In this document: positions 8,755-47,636 of the stretch, in pieces
How the letters are laid out: the number at the start of each line of letters is the position of its first letter
How positions within the stretch are numbered: position 1 is the first letter of the stretch
Sequence record: KT454806
From: Escherichia phage SUSP2
DNA length: 64,000 nucleotides
Strand: one strand, 5' to 3'
Position numbers and translations under genes: made by a program
Notes under the pieces: model-generated
What the model was told of the DNA's origin: nothing
Database searches by the model: none
Seen by the model: the letters and a program-made list of their open reading frames with translations, nothing else

Positions 8755-10107
8755 ATGTGGAATCCAATTGTTAATGTAGATATTACATTGAACACCGCAG
8801 GAACTACAAGAGAAGGTTTTGGTCTACCATTATTCTTAGCGTCAACAGACAACTTTGAAGAAAGGGTTCGTGGCTATACTTCTCTGACTGAAGTTGCTGA
8901 AGATTTCGATGAAAGCACTGCTGCATATAAAGCAGCAAAACAGCTATGGAGCCAAACTCCAAAGGTTACTCAGTTGTATATTGGTAGACGTGCTATGCAG
9001 TATACAGTCTCAATCCCAGATGAAGTAACTGAAAGCACAGATTACTCTCTGACGATTGCTGTAGGTGGTGGGGTTTCTCAGCCATACCAATACACTGCTC
9101 AAGCTGATGACACTGCTCTGATTGTCCTGACGCAGTTTAAAGACCAGATTGAAGCTGACCCAACAATCAAAGATGATGTTACTATCAACGTAACAGGTAC
9201 TGGTAGCTCTGCAACCATGATTGTTACAAAAGCTGGTGACAATGACTTCGTAAAAGTTACATCAACAACAAGTTCTGTGTCAATCGCTGGTACAACTGCT
9301 GATACTGCTGCAAGTGCTCTGGCTGCAATTGAAACGTACTCAACTGACTGGTACTTCATTTCTGCTGAAGACAGAACTGCACAGTTCGTCTTGGCAATGG
9401 CTTCAGAGATTCAGGCTCGTAAGAAGATTTTCTTCACAGCTAACTCTGATGTGGCTGCACTGCAAGGAACCGAACTGGCATCAGCTTCTGATGTTCCTGC
9501 ACAGCTTGCTAAGAGCATGTACACTCGTACAGTTTGCTTGTGGCATCACTCTGCCAGCTATGACTACCCAGAAATGGCTTACATTGCTTACGGTGCTCCG
9601 TATGATGCAGGTTCAATTGCTTGGGGTAACGCTCAGTTGACTGGTGTTGAAGCATCTCTTCAGCCAGCTAATCAGAGACCTCTGACAAGCATTCAGAAAT
9701 CCGCTTTGGATGTACGTCACTGCAACTTCATCGACCTTGATGGCGGTGTTCCAGTTGTACGTAGAGGTATCACTTCTGGTGGTGAATGGATTGATATCAT
9801 CCGTGGTGTTGACTGGTTAGAATCTGACTTGAAAACTTCTCTGAGAGACTTGCTAATTAATCAGAAGGGTGGTAAGATTACTTATGATGATACTGGTATT
9901 ACCCGTATTCGTCAGGTCATTGAAACCTCTCTGCAAAGAGCAGTTAACAGAAACTTCCTGTCATCTTACACAGTTAATGTTCCTAAAGCCTCTCAAGTTG
10001 CTTTGGCAGACAAGAAAGCTCGTATCCTGAAAGACGTTACCTTCGCAGGTATCTTAGCAGGTGCTATCTTGGATGTTGACTTGAAAGGTACAGTGGCTTA
10101 CGAATAA
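8755..10107 (+). CDS. Tail sheath protein (contractile tail)
   Basis: 450-aa ORF immediately upstream of a 148-aa tube-like ORF and the chaperone/tape-measure genes; position and size typical of myophage sheath. Confidence 0.55.
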   Translation: MWNPIVNVDITLNTAGTTREGFGLPLFLASTDNFEERVRGYTSLTEVAEDFDESTAAYKAAKQLWSQTPKVTQLYIGRRAMQYTVSIPDEVTESTDYSLTIAVGGGVSQPYQYTAQADDTALIVLTQFKDQIEADPTIKDDVTINVTGTGSSATMIVTKAGDNDFVKVTSTTSSVSIAGTTADTAASALAAIETYSTDWYFISAEDRTAQFVLAMASEIQARKKIFFTANSDVAALQGTELASASDVPAQLAKSMYTRTVCLWHHSASYDYPEMAYIAYGAPYDAGSIAWGNAQLTGVEASLQPANQRPLTSIQKSALDVRHCNFIDLDGGVPVVRRGITSGGEWIDIIRGVDWLESDLKTSLRDLLINQKGGKITYDDTGITRIRQVIETSLQRAVNRNFLSSYTVNVPKASQVALADKKARILKDVTFAGILAGAILDVDLKGTVAYE

Positions 10108-10122
10108 TAGAGGTAAATTGGA

Positions 10123-10569
10123 ATGGCTATGTATCAGCAATATTCCCCTAAAGACGTTGTATGTAGCTGGAATGGTATTGCCATCGAAGGCTTTGCTCCA
10201 GATTCATTCTTACGTCTACAGAGAACTTCTCCACTTGTTACACCAGTTGTTGGTGCAGGTGGTCAGGTAGCTCTGACAAGAAACGCAGACAAGACAGGTA
10301 CTATTGAGATTGAGCTAATGCAGACTTCACTCTCTAACCAAATGCTTTCTGCGATTCAAGCTAAACAAGATGACATGGAACTTGAAGAAGATATCTCTTC
10401 TAACTTCGTAATCTACGACCCATCTGGTTCTGTTCTGGCAACTGGTATCAACGCATGGTTGCAGGAACTGCCACAGATTGAACTTGGTCGTGACCAGAAC
10501 TCTAAAACTTGGATTTTTGGTTGTGAGAAGCTAGACTACACTTCTACGATTCCTGCGTCAAGTGTTTAA
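10123..10569 (+). CDS. Tail tube protein
   Basis: 148-aa ORF after sheath, followed by a strong terminator; position-based. Confidence 0.55.
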   Translation: MAMYQQYSPKDVVCSWNGIAIEGFAPDSFLRLQRTSPLVTPVVGAGGQVALTRNADKTGTIEIELMQTSLSNQMLSAIQAKQDDMELEEDISSNFVIYDPSGSVLATGINAWLQELPQIELGRDQNSKTWIFGCEKLDYTSTIPASSV

Positions 10570-10583
10570 GAACATCCTAATAA

Positions 10584-10616
10584 GGGGGAGACTGTAAAAG
10601 GTCTTCCCTTTTTTCG
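10584..10616 (+). terminator. Rho-independent terminator after sheath/tube genes
   Basis: GGGAGAC...GTCTTCCC stem (one bulge) followed by TTTTTT. Confidence 0.6.
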
Positions 10617-10649
10617 TTTATAGAGCCTAAGAAAATTTAAGGAATCACA

Positions 10650-11060
10650 ATGAAGACAGAATCTAAAATTATTAATGGTAAGAAAGTGAATATTGTCCTG
10701 CTAGGTGCAAGAGATGGTATTAAAATGTCGATGAAACTCGGTAAAGTTGTTGTACCGACAATTGCTCAGATGTTTTCAAGTTTATCTGGGAAAGAGCAGA
10801 AAGAAGGTGAAGAAAGTGTAACAGCAGTACCTTTTAAAGAATTAGTTGAAGCTTGCTTTGACCGTATTGATGAACTCGATATTGACTCAATGGCTGCTCT
10901 GCTATTCCAAGGTGCAACTGTAGATGACTTCCCTCTAAACGTAGATAAATACTTCCAAGCAAACTACGGTGAATTTATTGACTTCTTGGCATTTGCTCTG
11001 GAGGCTAATTTCGGAAGTTTTTTCGAAGCAAGCATTTTCAAAAGCCTAACTTCTCAGTAA
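10650..11060 (+). CDS. Tail assembly chaperone (G-like)
   Basis: 136-aa acidic ORF immediately upstream of tape measure; contains slippery heptamer T_TTT_TTC near its 3' end. Confidence 0.6.
   Translation: MKTESKIINGKKVNIVLLGARDGIKMSMKLGKVVVPTIAQMFSSLSGKEQKEGEESVTAVPFKELVEACFDRIDELDIDSMAALLFQGATVDDFPLNVDKYFQANYGEFIDFLAFALEANFGSFFEASIFKSLTSQ
11018..11024 (+). other. -1 programmed ribosomal frameshift slippery site (TTTTTTC)
   Basis: XXXYYYZ heptamer in the zero frame of the chaperone ORF (codons aGT TTT TTC); the -1 frame is open from here through 11302. Confidence 0.55.
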
Positions 11061-11302
11061 GCATGAGTAGTGCTATGCAGACCCCATTGACTGATGGGGC
11101 TGTAGAAGCAACTTATGAAGAAGCAGATGAGATGAAATTTGTGCTTGCTATTTACGGTATGGAAGGGTGTAAAGAAACACTCGACCAACTCTTCTCAATG
11201 ACTTTCTCCGATTTATTATCTCTGCGACAATATTTAGAAATCCAGAGGTCATACAAAGAAGAAATTGCTTATAACGAACTTAGAAGGGCAGGTAAAATTT
11301 AA
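11024..11302 (+). CDS. -1 frameshift extension of tail assembly chaperone (G-T-like fusion product)
   Basis: -1 frame open from slippery site to stop at 11300-11302, ending exactly at the tape-measure start; conserved tailed-phage arrangement. Confidence 0.5.
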   Translation, partial: RSKHFQKPNFSVSMSSAMQTPLTDGAVEATYEEADEMKFVLAIYGMEGCKETLDQLFSMTFSDLLSLRQYLEIQRSYKEEIAYNELRRAGKI

Positions 11303-13541
11303 TGGCACAATATACAGTTGATAGCTTTATTGTGGAGTTGGGTTTCAGTGAAAAGGTTGTTAAAGGTTTGCAGAGAGTTGAAAGGATGGCTATGCAGTCT
11401 GCTCAACGAATCGAACGTAATATTAACAAAGCCTTTGACGTGAAACCTAATAAGTCTTCACAGGAAGCATTAAACAGAATTGTAAAAAACGCTCAGACTG
11501 CTTCGGGCAGAATCAATAAAGCACTCAACAACTCCCTTAACCTTGATTCACAAGGTGTTAAATCTCTTAAAAGACTGGAAACTCAAGGTAGAAAAACTGC
11601 CAAGGAAATTAACAAGGCTTTAAGAGACGCTATGAAAGTTGATGGAAAAGTCACTGTTCGTGGTGGTAGAAAAGGTGGTACTGGTTTCCCTCCTACTGGT
11701 GGAAGTGGTAACCCAAGACCTCCAAGACCTGATATTGCTCAGAGACAGATGGAAAGAATGTTTAACAACAACTTCTACTCTGGTCTGACACGTCGCCTTG
11801 AAACTATTGGTGGACAAGGTAACCAAATGGCAGCTTCCTTCAGAGGAAACCTGCAAGGTCTTTATAACAAATATAAGGGAACTGGTAAAGTCGGTGAATA
11901 TGAGATGGAAGTCAAAAAGCTCATTGACGTTACCAAGCGTTGGGTTATTGCAGAAAATGCTAGACTCAAGTCAGTCAGAGAATCAGCTTGGCTTCAGGAA
12001 AGAGCTAACTCATCTCTACGTCAGATGATTGGTGGTTTTGTTTCAGCTTATGCAGCCTTGGAACTGGCTCAGAAGACGATTGATGCAGGTGTTAAAAGAC
12101 AGTCTGCACAGTTAGCCTCAACAGCTATCTTTGGAGCAGATACACAGCAAGCTAGAATGTTCGCTGCATCGTTTGCTCATCAGATTGGACAGAACTACAC
12201 AGACACCATGAAGCAATACTCAAACTTTGCTGCTGGTGCTCAACCTGCTCTTGGATTCCAAGGGACTCAGGAGTTCTATAAGAATGCTGCGATGTTCTCC
12301 CGTATCAGGGGTGCAACAGACGAAGACCTGAAAGGTATCATGGTTGCTTTCCAACAGATGGCTTCTAAGGGTAAGATTCAGGCTGAAGAACTTCGTGGTC
12401 AGTTAGGTGACCGTTTGGCAGGTGCTGTACAGTTATTTGCTGATGCTATCGGTAAGACACCACAAGAACTTGATAAGATGATGAAGGACGGTAAACTCCT
12501 TGCTGAAGATGTACTTCCAAAGGTATCTGAAAAGATGGCTGAGTTGGTACAGGCAGCAGGTGGTATGAATGCCGTATCTAAGCAGACAGCTACCTCAATG
12601 GGTCAAGCGAAGTCTATGTGGGATAACATGTTAGTTGCATTGTTTAATAACTCTAGCGACGGTATTTCACAGCTTTCACAATCCATTGCAATGTTCTTAC
12701 AAGGTTCTATGGGTACTGCTGAAGCACTTGGCACAGTGATTGGTTACCTGTTAAAAGGTGCTGGTAACTTACTTGACTTCGTAACAGATATCATGTACAG
12801 AACATCTTCACTATATTACTCTGCAATGGCATGGTACAAGGATTTGGATGCAAGTCAACAGAAACTTATCAAGGATTCTGCTGAACTGGTCTCAACCTTT
12901 GCTATGATTGGTGCTGCAATTGCTGCCATTAATAAGGTTGCAAAAATCTTCGGTGGTACTGTAGCGTTCGTTAAGAGTATCTTTGAAGAAGGTATCTTTG
13001 CAAAAATCATGCAGAAGTTTGGTTTAGGTGGTGCAGCAGCCGCATCTGAAGCAGCAGGTGTTGCAGGAGTATCGGCAACCAGAATGGCTCTGGGTACAGT
13101 TGGTTCATCATTGATGTTATCTGGCTCTACAGACAGAAAGAATAATGGTAGATTTAGTGAAGTAAACCTTCCAAAACCTTTCGAAGATGCCGTATCAAGC
13201 ATTACTAACCCAAAACGTCCAATGTTCTTTGACCAGAATGGACAGCTACAGTTTGCACAATATTCTGTAGATGCTCAAGGTAATCGTAGCTTTGTTGATA
13301 ATGGAATGTCCAATTGGGATATTATCATGAACAACTTGTCAGAGTCTTTAAATAACTTTGCAACTAAGTTCAACCAAACCCCAATGATGATGACACCTTC
13401 TGGTTTCCCTATGCAGACTAGACAGACTCTGAATGTTTCATTCAATCTGGATGGTAAGCAGATTGCTACTAAGACGGTTGATATCATGGACAAGAACCAA
13501 GAAGATATCCTTCTTAACTCAAGTTACCCAGAGGAAGAATA

Positions 13542-13542
<1 letters not shown>
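11302..13542 (+). CDS. Tail tape measure protein
   Basis: 746-aa ORF, alpha-helical N-terminal part, Gly/Ala-rich hydrophobic segment, downstream of chaperone frameshift pair. Confidence 0.75.
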
Positions 13543-46048: not shown

Positions 46049-46324
46049 ATGTTAGAACTCATTCAAGATGCAAGGGGCAGAGAACCAAACTGTGCTTTGT
46101 ATCTGTATTATATTCCAAGACAGTCTCTATATTATATTGCAGACTATCACCTGAAAGTTAAAATGCCAGATGGTTCTTGGAAAGAGCATCTTCGTTACAT
46201 TGATTGCTTCAACCCAAGCAACACTTATGCAAGGTCTCTTGACATGTTTAAAGTTGACCGTTGGCAAGTTTTAACAGCGTCAGAAGCCAGAGAATTTTAT
46301 GAAACAGGAAACCTACCACTATGA
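46049..46324 (+). CDS. Hypothetical protein between nrdA and nrdB
   Basis: 91-aa ORF. Confidence 0.4.
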   Translation: MLELIQDARGREPNCALYLYYIPRQSLYYIADYHLKVKMPDGSWKEHLRYIDCFNPSNTYARSLDMFKVDRWQVLTASEAREFYETGNLPL

Positions 46325-47394
46325 TTAACCAACATCCAATCTTTTTAGGTGGTGAGCGAAAAACTTTTGACTCACTCAATAAACACTATCCAAAAATCTT
46401 TGAACTGTACAAACAGCAGAAAGCACAAGACTGGTCTGAAGATGAGTTCCCGTTTGAGCAGTCACGATTAGATTTTGAAAGCGTTCCAGAATCAATGTCT
46501 GGTGTAATGCTTGAGATTCTTAAGTGGCAGTGGGAAGCTGATACACAGGTTGCTAAAAGTTTGGCATTTGCTTTTGCACCATTCATCTCTGATGATATCT
46601 ACGCAACGGCAATTATGAAGCAATCTGAAATTGAGAACCTTCATGCCTTGACTTATTCAGAGATTGTTCGTCAGTGCATCAAGAATCCTGAAACAATCCT
46701 TGATGAGATTAACCAGAATGCTGCTGTACAAGACCGTCTGAAGACTGTGAACAGAGCACTGGAAGAACTACTTGACGAAGGTATCAACTATCGTCTAGGT
46801 TATGTTCGTGATTCACTGCTTGAGAAAGACCCTTTACACTTCCACAAAGTGATTTTGAAAGGTCTCTTTGCAGTAACAGCCTTGGAAGGTGTATCCTTTA
46901 TGGCATCCTTTGCATGTACCTTTGCACTTGATGCACAAGATAAGTTCCAAGGTATTGCTCAGGCAGTACAGAAAATTATGCTTGATGAAATCCTTCACAC
47001 GAAGATTGACATTGAAGCACTGAAAGAAACTTTGAAAGATGAAGAGTGGCAAGAAGCTTTCCGTCAGGTTCTTCCAGAAATCAAAGTAATTCTTGATGAA
47101 GTAGTTGAAAGTGAAGAGAAATGGTCTTATTATATTTTCTCTGAAGGTCGTGCCGTAGTTGGTTTGAATACAAAACTTCTGCATGAGTGGGTTTACTATA
47201 ATGCTGCACCATTGTATGATATGTTTGGTATTCCAAGAGACTTCGTAGCTCCTAAAGAACCACCTTTGAAATACATGATTAAGAAGATGGAAATTGATAA
47301 AGAGCAGAATGCTAACCAAGAACAGCAAAACGGTGCGTACTTGTTGAATACCGTTGTAGATGATTTAAACTCAGGATATTTAGAGGTTCCTTAA
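46321..47394 (+). CDS. nrdB: Ribonucleotide reductase class Ia small subunit
   Basis: 357-aa ORF coupled downstream of nrdA region; helical ferritin-like protein. Confidence 0.75.
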   Translation: MINQHPIFLGGERKTFDSLNKHYPKIFELYKQQKAQDWSEDEFPFEQSRLDFESVPESMSGVMLEILKWQWEADTQVAKSLAFAFAPFISDDIYATAIMKQSEIENLHALTYSEIVRQCIKNPETILDEINQNAAVQDRLKTVNRALEELLDEGINYRLGYVRDSLLEKDPLHFHKVILKGLFAVTALEGVSFMASFACTFALDAQDKFQGIAQAVQKIMLDEILHTKIDIEALKETLKDEEWQEAFRQVLPEIKVILDEVVESEEKWSYYIFSEGRAVVGLNTKLLHEWVYYNAAPLYDMFGIPRDFVAPKEPPLKYMIKKMEIDKEQNANQEQQNGAYLLNTVVDDLNSGYLEVP

Positions 47395-47636
47395 TGACTT
47401 ACGTAATTTACTCCAAAACTGGTTGCCCTCAGTGTGAAACTGCAAAGAACTTTGCAAAGGCTCGTGGTATTGACCACGTTGTAAGAATGTTAGGGCAGGA
47501 TTATGAACTGTCAGACCTGATGGATATTGCACAGATGCCAGTTCGTCAGATGCCATTTATCATGAAGACTGATGATACTGTTCTTACGCCAGTTGGAACA
47601 CTACAAAACTTTATGGCAGAGGTGAACAATGCTTAA
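47394..47636 (+). CDS. nrdC: Glutaredoxin
   Basis: CPQC active-site motif near N-terminus; 80 aa; coupled to nrdB. Confidence 0.7.
   Translation: MTYVIYSKTGCPQCETAKNFAKARGIDHVVRMLGQDYELSDLMDIAQMPVRQMPFIMKTDDTVLTPVGTLQNFMAEVNNA

What the first reader, a model, noticed from the sequence alone, without database searches (positions are those of the whole stretch)
11018..11024. Canonical -1 programmed frameshift site in the tail assembly chaperone
The slippery heptamer T_TTT_TTC lies in the zero frame about 36 nt before the stop of the chaperone ORF. The -1 frame is open from this point through the 79-aa downstream ORF, which ends exactly at the tape-measure start. This is the conserved G/GT arrangement of tailed phages and predicts a fusion protein made at low frequency.
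Basis: partly seen in the sequence, partly recalled or inferred. Interest (0 to 1): 0.4.

Follow-up and report, generated by a model that had tools for sequence, protein, structure and literature searches.

The report
Tail chaperone -1 frameshift site
This is the usual ribosomal frameshift site that lets a tailed phage make a short and a long form of its tail assembly chaperone from one start codon; it is well supported by comparison with relatives but ordinary, and the same site is already annotated in sister phages.

Summary
TTTTTTC (11018-11024) lies in X_XXY_YYZ phase in the 136-aa tail assembly chaperone ORF (10650-11060; Pfam PF21822). It sits inside a 52-nt overlap with a -1 frame that stays open to TAA 11300-11302, which overlaps the tape-measure ATG at 11302.

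The window is about 99% identical to Escherichia phage phiSUSP1 (Ounavirinae). Four lines of comparison support a -1 programmed frameshift giving a 217-aa fusion:
- All 53 scorable related loci have a 55-91-aa -1 extension.
- The T run is kept against codon bias in 12 lineages (joint P about 3e-9).
- Synonymous variation stops at the heptamer (7/7 codons identical versus 4/30 upstream).
- Many relatives have no start codon for the downstream ORF, and here ATG 11063 and 11075 have no ribosome binding site.

A strong Shine-Dalgarno-like GGAGG (11000-11004) lies 13 nt upstream and is conserved beyond what the amino acids require. No conserved downstream hairpin was found.

The same site is annotated as ribosomal slippage in Citrobacter phages Moogle and Michonne, whereas phiSUSP1-type records list two separate genes. 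No experiment exists for this group. Low interest.

The parts
8755..10107 (+). tail sheath gene (context)
   Evidence: PHROG 205 'tail sheath', E 2.9e-119; Pfam DUF3383.
10123..10569 (+). tail tube / virion structural protein gene, immediately upstream of the chaperone
   Evidence: PHROG 280, E 1.9e-47; Pfam PF11681. Annotated 'tail tube protein' in Erwinia phage Harbringer.
10650..11060 (+). zero-frame tail assembly chaperone ORF (G-like), 136 aa, with its own ribosome binding site (AAGGA)
   Evidence: Pfam PF21822 Phage_TAC_15 at 78.2 bits against a cut-off of 22. PHROG 1613 'tail assembly chaperone', E 2.5e-46. Ribosome binding site dG -6.1.
11000..11004 (+). internal Shine-Dalgarno-like GGAGG, 13 nt 5' of the heptamer; candidate 5' frameshift stimulator (inferred)
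   Evidence: - Anti-SD duplex dG is -9.3 kcal/mol, stronger than all 14 real ribosome binding sites tested nearby.
- An element of -8 kcal/mol or stronger is present at the same place in 9 of 12 lineages, against 1.95 expected from synonymous recoding (P 3.5e-6).
- The published stimulatory spacing for -1 shifts is 9-14 nt (PMC5009743).
11006..11008 (+). TAA stop in the -1 frame; sets the 5' limit of the 52-nt window in which a productive -1 shift can occur
11018..11024 (+). slippery heptamer T_TTT_TTC (Ser123 third base, Phe124, Phe125)
   Evidence: - Phase shown.
- Conserved in frame in relatives.
- Held against codon bias, joint P 2.7e-9.
- Efficient motif class in E. coli (PMC4066793).
11024..11302 (+). 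-1 frame segment read after the shift (T-like part): 92 codons starting CGA at 11024, stop TAA at 11300-11302. The fusion is 125 + 92 = 217 aa.
   Evidence: - Translation.
- PHROG 4963 'tail assembly chaperone', E 9.4e-54 for residues from 11063.
- Homologous -1 extensions in relatives.
- Synonymous suppression in the overlap.
11063..11302 (+). 79-aa ORF as listed in public records (ATG 11063, or ATG 11075 in RefSeq phiSUSP1); no recognisable ribosome binding site
   Evidence: Anti-SD dG is 0 at 11063 and -2.2 at 11075, against -4.5 to -8.5 for 14 neighbouring genes. Annotated as a separate CDS.
11302..13542 (+). tail length tape measure protein gene; its ATG overlaps the stop of the -1 frame (TAATG)
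   Evidence: PHROG 4036, E 0; sequence.

Best explanation
A minority of ribosomes translating the chaperone ORF (10650-11060) slip back one base on U_UUU_UUC (11018-11024). This happens with tRNA-Phe on UUU in the P site and on UUC in the A site; both re-pair on UUU in the -1 frame.

Those ribosomes then read CGA (11024-11026) and continue in the -1 frame to TAA 11300-11302. The product is a 217-aa fusion: 125 residues of the chaperone plus 92 new residues. The remaining ribosomes terminate at 11058-11060 and give the 136-aa protein.

By analogy with lambda gpG/gpGT and P2 E/E+E', both forms bind the tape measure protein. The extension of the rare long form recruits the tail tube protein, so the fixed ratio set by the shift efficiency matters for tail assembly.

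The GGAGG 13 nt upstream probably pairs with the 3' end of 16S rRNA in the elongating ribosome and raises the shift frequency, as in dnaX and IS elements. No 3' RNA structure appears to be involved.

Shown here: the anatomy, the conservation and the nucleotide-level constraint. Inferred: the slippage itself, its efficiency, the role of the SD-like element and the assembly function.
For: **Site and context**
- Phase, the 52-nt overlap and the open -1 frame.
- Position between the tube and tape-measure genes, with a Pfam tail assembly chaperone match above cut-off.

**Conservation in relatives**
- All 53 scorable IMG/VR loci that encode a relative have a -1 extension of 55-91 aa, and the +1 frame is short in nearly all.
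- An in-frame T_TTT_TTC/T/A is present in 14 divergent lineages, and the Ser codon switches AGT<->TCT while keeping the T.
- It is also present in Kolesnikvirus and Yersinia phage P778.
- The T run is kept even in contigs of 56-62% GC, where TTT is 16-21% of Phe codons. Joint probability given the amino acids is 2.7e-9.

**Evidence that the -1 frame is translated from the heptamer**
- Across six Ounavirinae representatives, codons at invariant degenerate residues are identical in 4/30 columns upstream of Ser123 and in 7/7 from Ser123 on (Fisher P 3.2e-5). This indicates that the -1 frame is translated from the heptamer, not from the ATG.
- In the Erwinia phages and several distant relatives, the first ATG of the -1 ORF lies 71-122 nt past the zero-frame stop, inside the conserved domain; most have no start codon of any kind nearer than that.
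- ATG 11063 and 11075 have no ribosome binding site.

**Signal strength and precedent**
- U_UU.U_UU.C is in the efficient class in E. coli and is used by IS elements: PMC4066793.
- SD-like element. Stimulatory spacing of 9-14 nt: PMC5009743.
- The same site is annotated as 'ribosomal slippage' in Michonne and as a joined CDS in Moogle, and is stated in both genome announcements.
Against: - There is no experimental evidence for the fusion protein in any Ounavirinae phage in the literature searched.
- The Moogle and Michonne annotations are predictions by analogy.
- No 3' stimulatory structure was found. The 40 nt after the heptamer fold at only -1.9 kcal/mol (z +0.9), and nothing is conserved across lineages.
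- The SD-like element is absent in Kolesnikvirus (GAAAAG), weak in Yersinia phage P778 (GGAAG) and absent in L055. It is therefore not essential.
- In Suspvirus, Felixounavirus and Mooglevirus an ATG lies 5-11 nt after the zero-frame stop, so some termination-reinitiation could also give a free T protein.
- The lineage counts treat clusters below about 50% amino-acid identity as independent, which is an approximation.
Confidence: 0.88

Rival explanations
1. There is no frameshift. The downstream ORF is an independent small gene translated from ATG 11063 or 11075, as most public records list it, perhaps by termination-reinitiation after the chaperone stop (TAAGCATG).
For: - phiSUSP1, mistaenkt, CHB7, ESCO50, BPSELC-1 and P778 records list two separate CDS.
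- An ATG lies 2 nt after the stop here, and a Met (MQTPLTD) is conserved in Suspvirus, Felixounavirus and Mooglevirus.
- PHROG 4963 models the 79-aa ORF as a unit.
Against: - Neither ATG has a ribosome binding site (dG 0 and -2.2, against -4.5 to -8.5 for neighbouring genes).
- Kolesnikvirus and many distant relatives have no start codon near the beginning of the homologous -1 ORF.
- This reading does not explain the codon-level conservation of the T run, nor synonymous suppression that begins at the heptamer, 39 nt before the ATG.
Confidence: 0.05
2. The fusion is made, but by RNA polymerase slippage on the T6 run (loss of one U in the mRNA) rather than by ribosomal slippage.
For: The site is a homopolymeric T run, and one relative (L051) has 8 T. 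A 1-nt deletion in the transcript would give the same protein, apart from possible ambiguity in one Phe.
Against: - Productive transcriptional slippage in bacteria is described for runs of about 9 A or T (PMC5009743). Six T is short.
- The run is kept in a fixed codon phase (X_XXY_YYZ) in all lineages, and an SD-like element sits at the ribosomal stimulatory spacing. Neither matters for polymerase slippage.
- Distant relatives keep only the in-phase U_UU.Y tetramer.
Confidence: 0.03
3. The shift occurs elsewhere in the 52-nt overlap, for example on the in-phase U_UU.C tetramers at 11009-11012 (AAT TTC) or 11036-11039 (ATT TTC), and not on the heptamer.
For: U_UU.Y tetramers are among the three most shift-prone tetramers in E. 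coli (PMC4066793). Both lie inside the open overlap. One group of distant relatives has only a tetramer.
Against: - Tetramers reach about ten-fold lower maximal efficiency than the best heptamers (PMC4066793).
- The 11009 tetramer is not conserved, because most relatives have AAC TTC there.
- The nucleotide-level constraint starts at Ser123, the first base of the heptamer.
Confidence: 0.03

Closest known systems
Tail assembly chaperone frameshift annotated in Citrobacter phages Michonne (NC_028247) and Moogle (NC_027293), Ounavirinae
   Same: These are orthologous genes in the same subfamily. They have the identical TTTTTTC heptamer with the same flanks and the same GGAGG 13 nt upstream. Each record carries a joined CDS, and the Michonne slippage coordinate falls inside the heptamer (L064 position 698 of 695-701). 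Both genome announcements state a -1 frameshift (PMC4591319, PMC4319497).
   Different: This is a different genus (the chaperone is about 76% identical). In those phages the zero-frame ORF is 3 codons shorter in total but extends further past the heptamer. The Suspvirus public records do not annotate the shift. Neither case has been tested experimentally.
Phage P2 E / E+E' (contractile-tailed phage)
   Same: This is a -1 frameshift on a T6-type heptamer (TTTTTTG) near the end of a small chaperone ORF. The ORF lies between the tail tube gene and the tape measure gene, and no downstream hairpin is present (PMC3091744, citing Christie 2002 and Xu 2004).
   Different: The last base of the heptamer is G, not C. 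No Pfam match to the P2 E family was returned for this protein at E <= 0.1, so there is no detectable sequence relationship. P2 is experimentally shown; this site is not.
Phage lambda gpG / gpGT (Levin 1993; Xu, Hendrix, Duda 2004, 2013, 2014)
   Same: The short and long chaperones share an N-terminus. The shift lies close to the end of the upstream ORF, and the extension ends at the tape-measure gene. The long form is rare, with a G:GT ratio of 30:1 in lambda (PMC5009743).
   Different: From my own knowledge, the lambda heptamer is G_GGA_AAG. Lambda has a non-contractile tail, belongs to a different Pfam family and has no described SD stimulator.
E. coli dnaX and IS3-family -1 frameshift signals
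   Same: A heptamer with a Shine-Dalgarno-like sequence 9-14 nt upstream that acts on elongating ribosomes (PMC5009743). U_UU.U_UU.C is one of the heptamers used by IS elements (PMC4066793).
   Different: Those signals normally also have a 3' stem-loop or pseudoknot, and none is supported here. The shift heptamer is A_AAA_AAG in dnaX. The gene products are unrelated.

Membership tests
G/GT-type tail assembly chaperone pair with conserved -1 frameshift (Xu, Hendrix and Duda 2004) | Gene pair lies between the major tail/tube gene and the tape measure gene | tested here: met
   Order is sheath 8755-10107, tube 10123-10569, chaperone 10650-11060, -1 ORF to 11302, tape measure 11302-13542.
G/GT-type tail assembly chaperone pair with conserved -1 frameshift (Xu, Hendrix and Duda 2004) | Downstream ORF overlaps the end of the upstream ORF in the -1 frame and lacks its own translation signals | tested here: met
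   The overlap is 52 nt. Anti-SD dG is 0 and -2.2 at ATG 11063 and 11075, against -4.5 to -8.5 for neighbouring genes. Several relatives have no start codon.
G/GT-type tail assembly chaperone pair with conserved -1 frameshift (Xu, Hendrix and Duda 2004) | Slippery sequence in the correct phase inside the overlap | tested here: met
   T_TTT_TTC at 11018-11024, phase confirmed.
G/GT-type tail assembly chaperone pair with conserved -1 frameshift (Xu, Hendrix and Duda 2004) | Arrangement and slip site conserved among divergent relatives | tested here: met
   53/53 scorable loci have the -1 extension. The heptamer is conserved with synonymous constraint.
G/GT-type tail assembly chaperone pair with conserved -1 frameshift (Xu, Hendrix and Duda 2004) | Two protein products sharing an N-terminus are made, and both are needed for tail assembly | not testable with these tools
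   This needs protein detection and genetics. No such data were found for Ounavirinae.
Pfam PF21822 Phage_TAC_15 | Score above the curated gathering threshold | tested here: met
   78.2 bits against a cut-off of 22, residues 9-128.
Solved tail assembly chaperone folds (PDB) | Structural similarity of the G part to a solved tail assembly chaperone | tested here: inconclusive
   The AlphaFold2 model has pLDDT 80.5. Foldseek against the PDB gave no match at E <= 0.001; the best was 5ir0 at E 1.1. phmmer against PDB sequences gave no hit.
dnaX / IS3-type tripartite -1 frameshift signal | X_XXY_YYZ heptamer of an efficient class | tested here: met
   H_HH.U_UU.Y is listed among the efficient E. coli motifs (PMC4066793).
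dnaX / IS3-type tripartite -1 frameshift signal | Shine-Dalgarno-like sequence 9-14 nt 5' of the shift site | tested here: met
   GGAGG at 11000-11004, 13 nt upstream, dG -9.3. Conserved beyond the amino-acid requirement in 9/12 lineages. Its function has not been tested.
dnaX / IS3-type tripartite -1 frameshift signal | Stable stem-loop or pseudoknot 5-9 nt 3' of the shift site | tested here: not met
   The 40 nt downstream fold at -1.9 kcal/mol, z +0.9. There is no common structure in 14 lineages and no Rfam match.
P2 E / E+E' family | Sequence homology to P2 gpE | tested here: not met
   The Pfam scan at E <= 0.1 returned only PF21822 for the chaperone.

The most novel reading that the evidence does not exclude
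The conserved internal Shine-Dalgarno-like element, 11-14 nt upstream of the U-run, may be a functional 5' stimulator that sets the G:GT ratio across the whole Phage_TAC_15 family. That would make this a two-part signal (SD + U6) with no 3' structure. Lineages that lost the SD (Kolesnikvirus) or reduced the heptamer to a U_UU.Y tetramer (the L040/L048-L050/L056 group) would then have retuned the ratio in other ways. The 24 nt after the heptamer are almost invariant across Ounavirinae genera and might also act at the RNA level, not only through dual coding.
Probability: 0.4. Interest if true: 0.35.

Novelty: already known. Interest (0 to 1): 0.2.

Why it matters
The practical consequence is for annotation. 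Public records of phiSUSP1-like and most Felix O1-like phages list the two chaperone ORFs separately, with inconsistent starts for the second ORF or none at all. The evidence points to one ORF plus a 217-aa frameshift product.

The biological interest is modest. The family gives a clean, deeply conserved example of a U6 heptamer paired with an upstream Shine-Dalgarno-like element and no downstream structure. It could serve as a simple natural system for measuring how these two elements set a protein ratio needed for tail assembly. It does not open a new question.

Tried and rejected
- **Downstream stimulatory RNA structure.** I folded 100 nt after the heptamer, and 40 and 60 nt in 14 lineages. 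The strong hairpin at about 11076-11104 starts more than 50 nt after the heptamer, too far away to stimulate the shift. A 13-bp imperfect stem starting 3 nt after the heptamer exists only in the Suspvirus sequence (-12.4 kcal/mol, z -2.0) and is absent in Felixounavirus. I rejected both as conserved stimulators. The Rfam scan of 10600-11400 found nothing.
- **An annotated fusion protein in the large protein database.** The 217-aa query returned only G-length proteins of about 130 aa among the best 100. This was uninformative because of the list cap.
- **Solved structures.** There was no sequence hit and no significant fold match for the AlphaFold2 model.
- **Literature on experimental evidence in Felix O1-like phages.** I found none. 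The Bas63 cryo-EM and PhageMaP papers do not discuss the chaperones.
- **The SD-like GGAGG as a ribosome binding site for an internal start.** No ATG, GTG or TTG lies 5-12 nt downstream in any frame (sequence), so I rejected this.
- **A second in-frame heptamer** (T_TTA_AAC at 47364-47370). It sits before a -1 ORF that has its own GAGG and ATG, so I judged it an ordinary gene overlap.

Full report
**What is there**

The window around the finding reads ...GCT CTG GAG GCT AAT TTC GGA AGT TTT TTC GAA GCA... in the frame of ORF 10650-11060.
- TTTTTTC occupies 11018-11024. Its first T is the third base of Ser123, so the phase is T_TTT_TTC.
- The zero-frame stop is TAA at 11058-11060.
- The -1 frame is closed by TAA at 11006-11008 and then open from 11009 to TAA 11300-11302. 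A productive -1 shift can therefore occur only within 52 nt, and the heptamer lies in that stretch.
- The -1 stop shares a base with the ATG of the next gene at 11302 (TAATG).
- A shift on the heptamer gives a 217-aa protein: 125 residues of the chaperone followed by RSKHFQKPNFSVSMSSAMQ...GKI.

Only 'about 36 nt before the stop' is approximate (33 nt after the heptamer, 40 nt from its first base).

**Chance**

In the window's ORFs of 100 aa or more, an in-phase X_XXY_YYZ heptamer occurs at 55 of 20,564 codon positions, which gives about 0.04 expected in the overlap. In-phase T_TTT_TTN occurs only twice. TTTTTTC is depleted in the window as a whole, with 8 sites against 25.5 +/- 5 in shuffles. 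Taken alone this is suggestive, not decisive.

**Identity and context**

The region is 99% identical to Escherichia phage phiSUSP1 (Suspvirus, Ounavirinae, the Felix O1-like myophages) and 86-87% identical to some 250 Felixounavirus records.

The gene order is tail sheath, tail tube, chaperone, -1 ORF, tape measure, then baseplate genes. The 136-aa protein matches Pfam PF21822 (Phage_TAC_15) at 78.2 bits against a cut-off of 22, and it matches PHROG tail assembly chaperone families. The 79-aa ORF matches PHROG 4963, also named tail assembly chaperone.

**Comparative evidence**

A scan of IMG/VR with an alignment of chaperone homologues gave 54 loci, ranging from 100% down to 25% identity.
- **Architecture.** One locus ran off its contig. 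In each of the other 53, the -1 frame stays open for 55-91 codons beyond the zero-frame stop, while the +1 frame closes within a few codons in nearly all.
- **Heptamer.** In 14 divergent lineages an in-phase T_TTT_TTC (or TTT/TTA) sits at the homologous position.
- **Preceding codon.** It varies (AGT, TCT, ACT, GAT, TTT) but always ends in T.
- **Phe codon.** Phe124 is always TTT, even in contigs of 56-62% GC where TTT is only 16-21% of Phe codons.
- **Joint probability.** Given the amino acids and local codon usage, the probability that all 12 lineages compared keep xxT TTT is 2.7e-9.
- **Search bias.** The loci were found through degenerate back-translated peptide patterns. The amino-acid motif is therefore partly ascertained, but the codon choice is not.

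**Frameshift or independent initiation**

A test within the subfamily separates the two. Six Ounavirinae representatives were compared: this window, Felixounavirus, two Moogle-like sequences, the Erwinia Kolesnikvirus phage and Yersinia phage P778.
- Among columns with an invariant degenerate residue, the codon is identical in only 4 of 30 columns upstream of Ser123.
- It is identical in 7 of 7 columns from Ser123 onward (Fisher P 3.2e-5).

Synonymous variation therefore stops at the first base of the heptamer. That is what dual coding predicts if the -1 frame is translated from the heptamer, and it begins 39 nt before the ATG at 11063.

Further points agree:
- In the Erwinia phages the first start codon in the -1 ORF lies 116 nt past the zero-frame stop, inside the conserved domain. 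Several distant relatives show the same pattern.
- In the window, ATG 11063 and ATG 11075 have anti-SD pairing energies of 0 and -2.2 kcal/mol, against -4.5 to -8.5 for 14 neighbouring genes.
- The -1 extensions are homologous across lineages, sharing a core F.L.(I/V)Y...C(K/R)E(T/S)L..L..M(T/S)(F/L).D(L/F).

**Stimulators**

No conserved 3' structure was found.
- The 40 nt after the heptamer fold at -1.9 kcal/mol (z +0.9).
- The 14 lineages share no hairpin at a 5-9-nt spacing.
- Rfam finds nothing.
- The strong hairpin at about 11076-11104 is too far away.

On the 5' side, GGAGG at 11000-11004 lies 13 nt before the heptamer.
- It pairs with the anti-SD at -9.3 kcal/mol, better than any of the 14 real ribosome binding sites tested.
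- An equivalent element (GGAGG, AAGGAG or GGAGGTGA) lies 11-14 nt upstream in most lineages, even where the amino acids differ (LEA, KEN, LEV).
- Resampling synonymous codons predicts such an element in 1.95 of 12 lineages, and 9 have it (P 3.5e-6).
- The published stimulatory spacing for -1 shifts is 9-14 nt, as in dnaX and many IS elements (PMC5009743).
- The element is missing in Kolesnikvirus and L055 and weak in P778. It is at most a modulator, and its function here is inferred.

**Mechanism**

I consider tandem slippage of the two tRNA-Phe on U_UUU_UUC the most likely mechanism. It would probably be helped by rRNA pairing to the upstream GGAGG, giving a few percent of a 217-aa long form beside the 136-aa short form.

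U_UU.U_UU.C is in the efficient class of heptamers measured in E. coli, is under-represented in E. coli genes and is used by IS elements (PMC4066793).

The assembly role follows from established work on lambda gpG/gpGT (PMC5009743): both forms bind the tape measure protein, and the extension recruits the tube protein. That role was not tested here.

**What is already known**

- The RefSeq records of Citrobacter phages Moogle and Michonne (same subfamily) carry a joined chaperone CDS.
- The Michonne note gives 'ribosomal slippage (47149)', which maps to position 698 of locus L064, inside the identical TTTTTTC at 695-701.
- Both genome announcements mention the -1 frameshift, citing Xu et al. 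2004 (PMC4319497, PMC4591319).
- P2 E/E+E' is a demonstrated myophage example on TTTTTTG, without a downstream hairpin (PMC3091744).
- By contrast, phiSUSP1, mistaenkt, CHB7, ESCO50, BPSELC-1 and P778 list two separate CDS. Roscha1 leaves the -1 ORF unannotated, and Harbringer splits it into two small ORFs.
- I found no experimental demonstration for any Ounavirinae phage.

**Rivals**

- **Independent initiation only** (about 0.05). It fails to explain the codon-level constraint and the relatives that lack start codons. Some reinitiation in addition to frameshifting cannot be excluded, because an ATG follows the stop by 2 nt.
- **Transcriptional slippage** (about 0.03). It is unlikely on six T, and it does not explain the fixed codon phase or the SD spacing.
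- **A shift on one of the in-phase U_UU.C tetramers in the overlap** (about 0.03). It is possible but should be much less efficient, and the constraint starts at the heptamer.

**Verdict**

This is an ordinary, already recognised kind of recoding site, and the orthologous site is annotated in sister phages.

The additions from this work are the quantitative conservation evidence, the absence of a 3' structure and the conserved upstream SD-like element. Interest is low. The practical outcome is a corrected annotation.

Noticed in passing
window 11076-11104 (+): A strong local hairpin (core ACCCCAU-UGACUG-AUGGGGC) starts right after ATG 11075. The 100-nt region folds at -31.6 kcal/mol, z -3.0. 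In Moogle/Michonne-type sequences the stem reads CCCCG...CGGGG, so an A-U pair is replaced by G-C through two synonymous changes. Felixounavirus does not keep the stem. It is too far from the heptamer to stimulate the shift, and might occlude initiation at 11075.
   Followed up: partly
loci L040, L042, L048, L049, L050, L056 (IMG/VR relatives, 25-32% identity): One subgroup of the chaperone family keeps the -1 extension but has no X_XXY_YYZ heptamer. It has only an in-phase U_UU.Y tetramer (GAY CTT TTC AGC, CTT TTT ACC or GTT TTT TCA) and a weaker AGGTGA-type upstream element. This suggests A-site-only slippage or another mechanism.
   Followed up: partly
window 11025-11048 and homologous positions in L005, L028, L060, L063: The roughly 24 nt after the heptamer (GAAGCAAGCATTTTCAAAAGCC) are almost identical in DNA across Ounavirinae genera whose chaperones are only about 45-50% identical in protein. 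Dual coding explains this. An additional RNA-level role was not tested.
   Followed up: partly
window 10580-10616 (+), between the tube gene and the chaperone gene: A GC-rich inverted repeat is followed by a T run (gggggagactgtaaaaggtcttcccTTTTTTC), which looks like an intrinsic terminator. The Michonne record annotates a terminator at the equivalent place. It could lower transcription of the chaperone and tape-measure genes relative to the sheath and tube genes.
   Followed up: no
window 47364-47370 (+): An in-phase T_TTA_AAC heptamer lies 24 nt before the stop of ORF 46321-47394, whose -1 frame continues into ORF 47394-47636. That ORF has its own GAGG and ATG overlapping the stop (TAATG), so this looks like ordinary translational coupling.
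   Followed up: partly
public records of relatives (L001, L002, L003, L058-L063): Annotation of the second chaperone ORF is inconsistent. RefSeq phiSUSP1 and mistaenkt start it at the second ATG (window 11075). CHB7 and ESCO50 start it at the first (11063). Roscha1 omits it, and Harbringer splits it into two short ORFs.
   Followed up: yes
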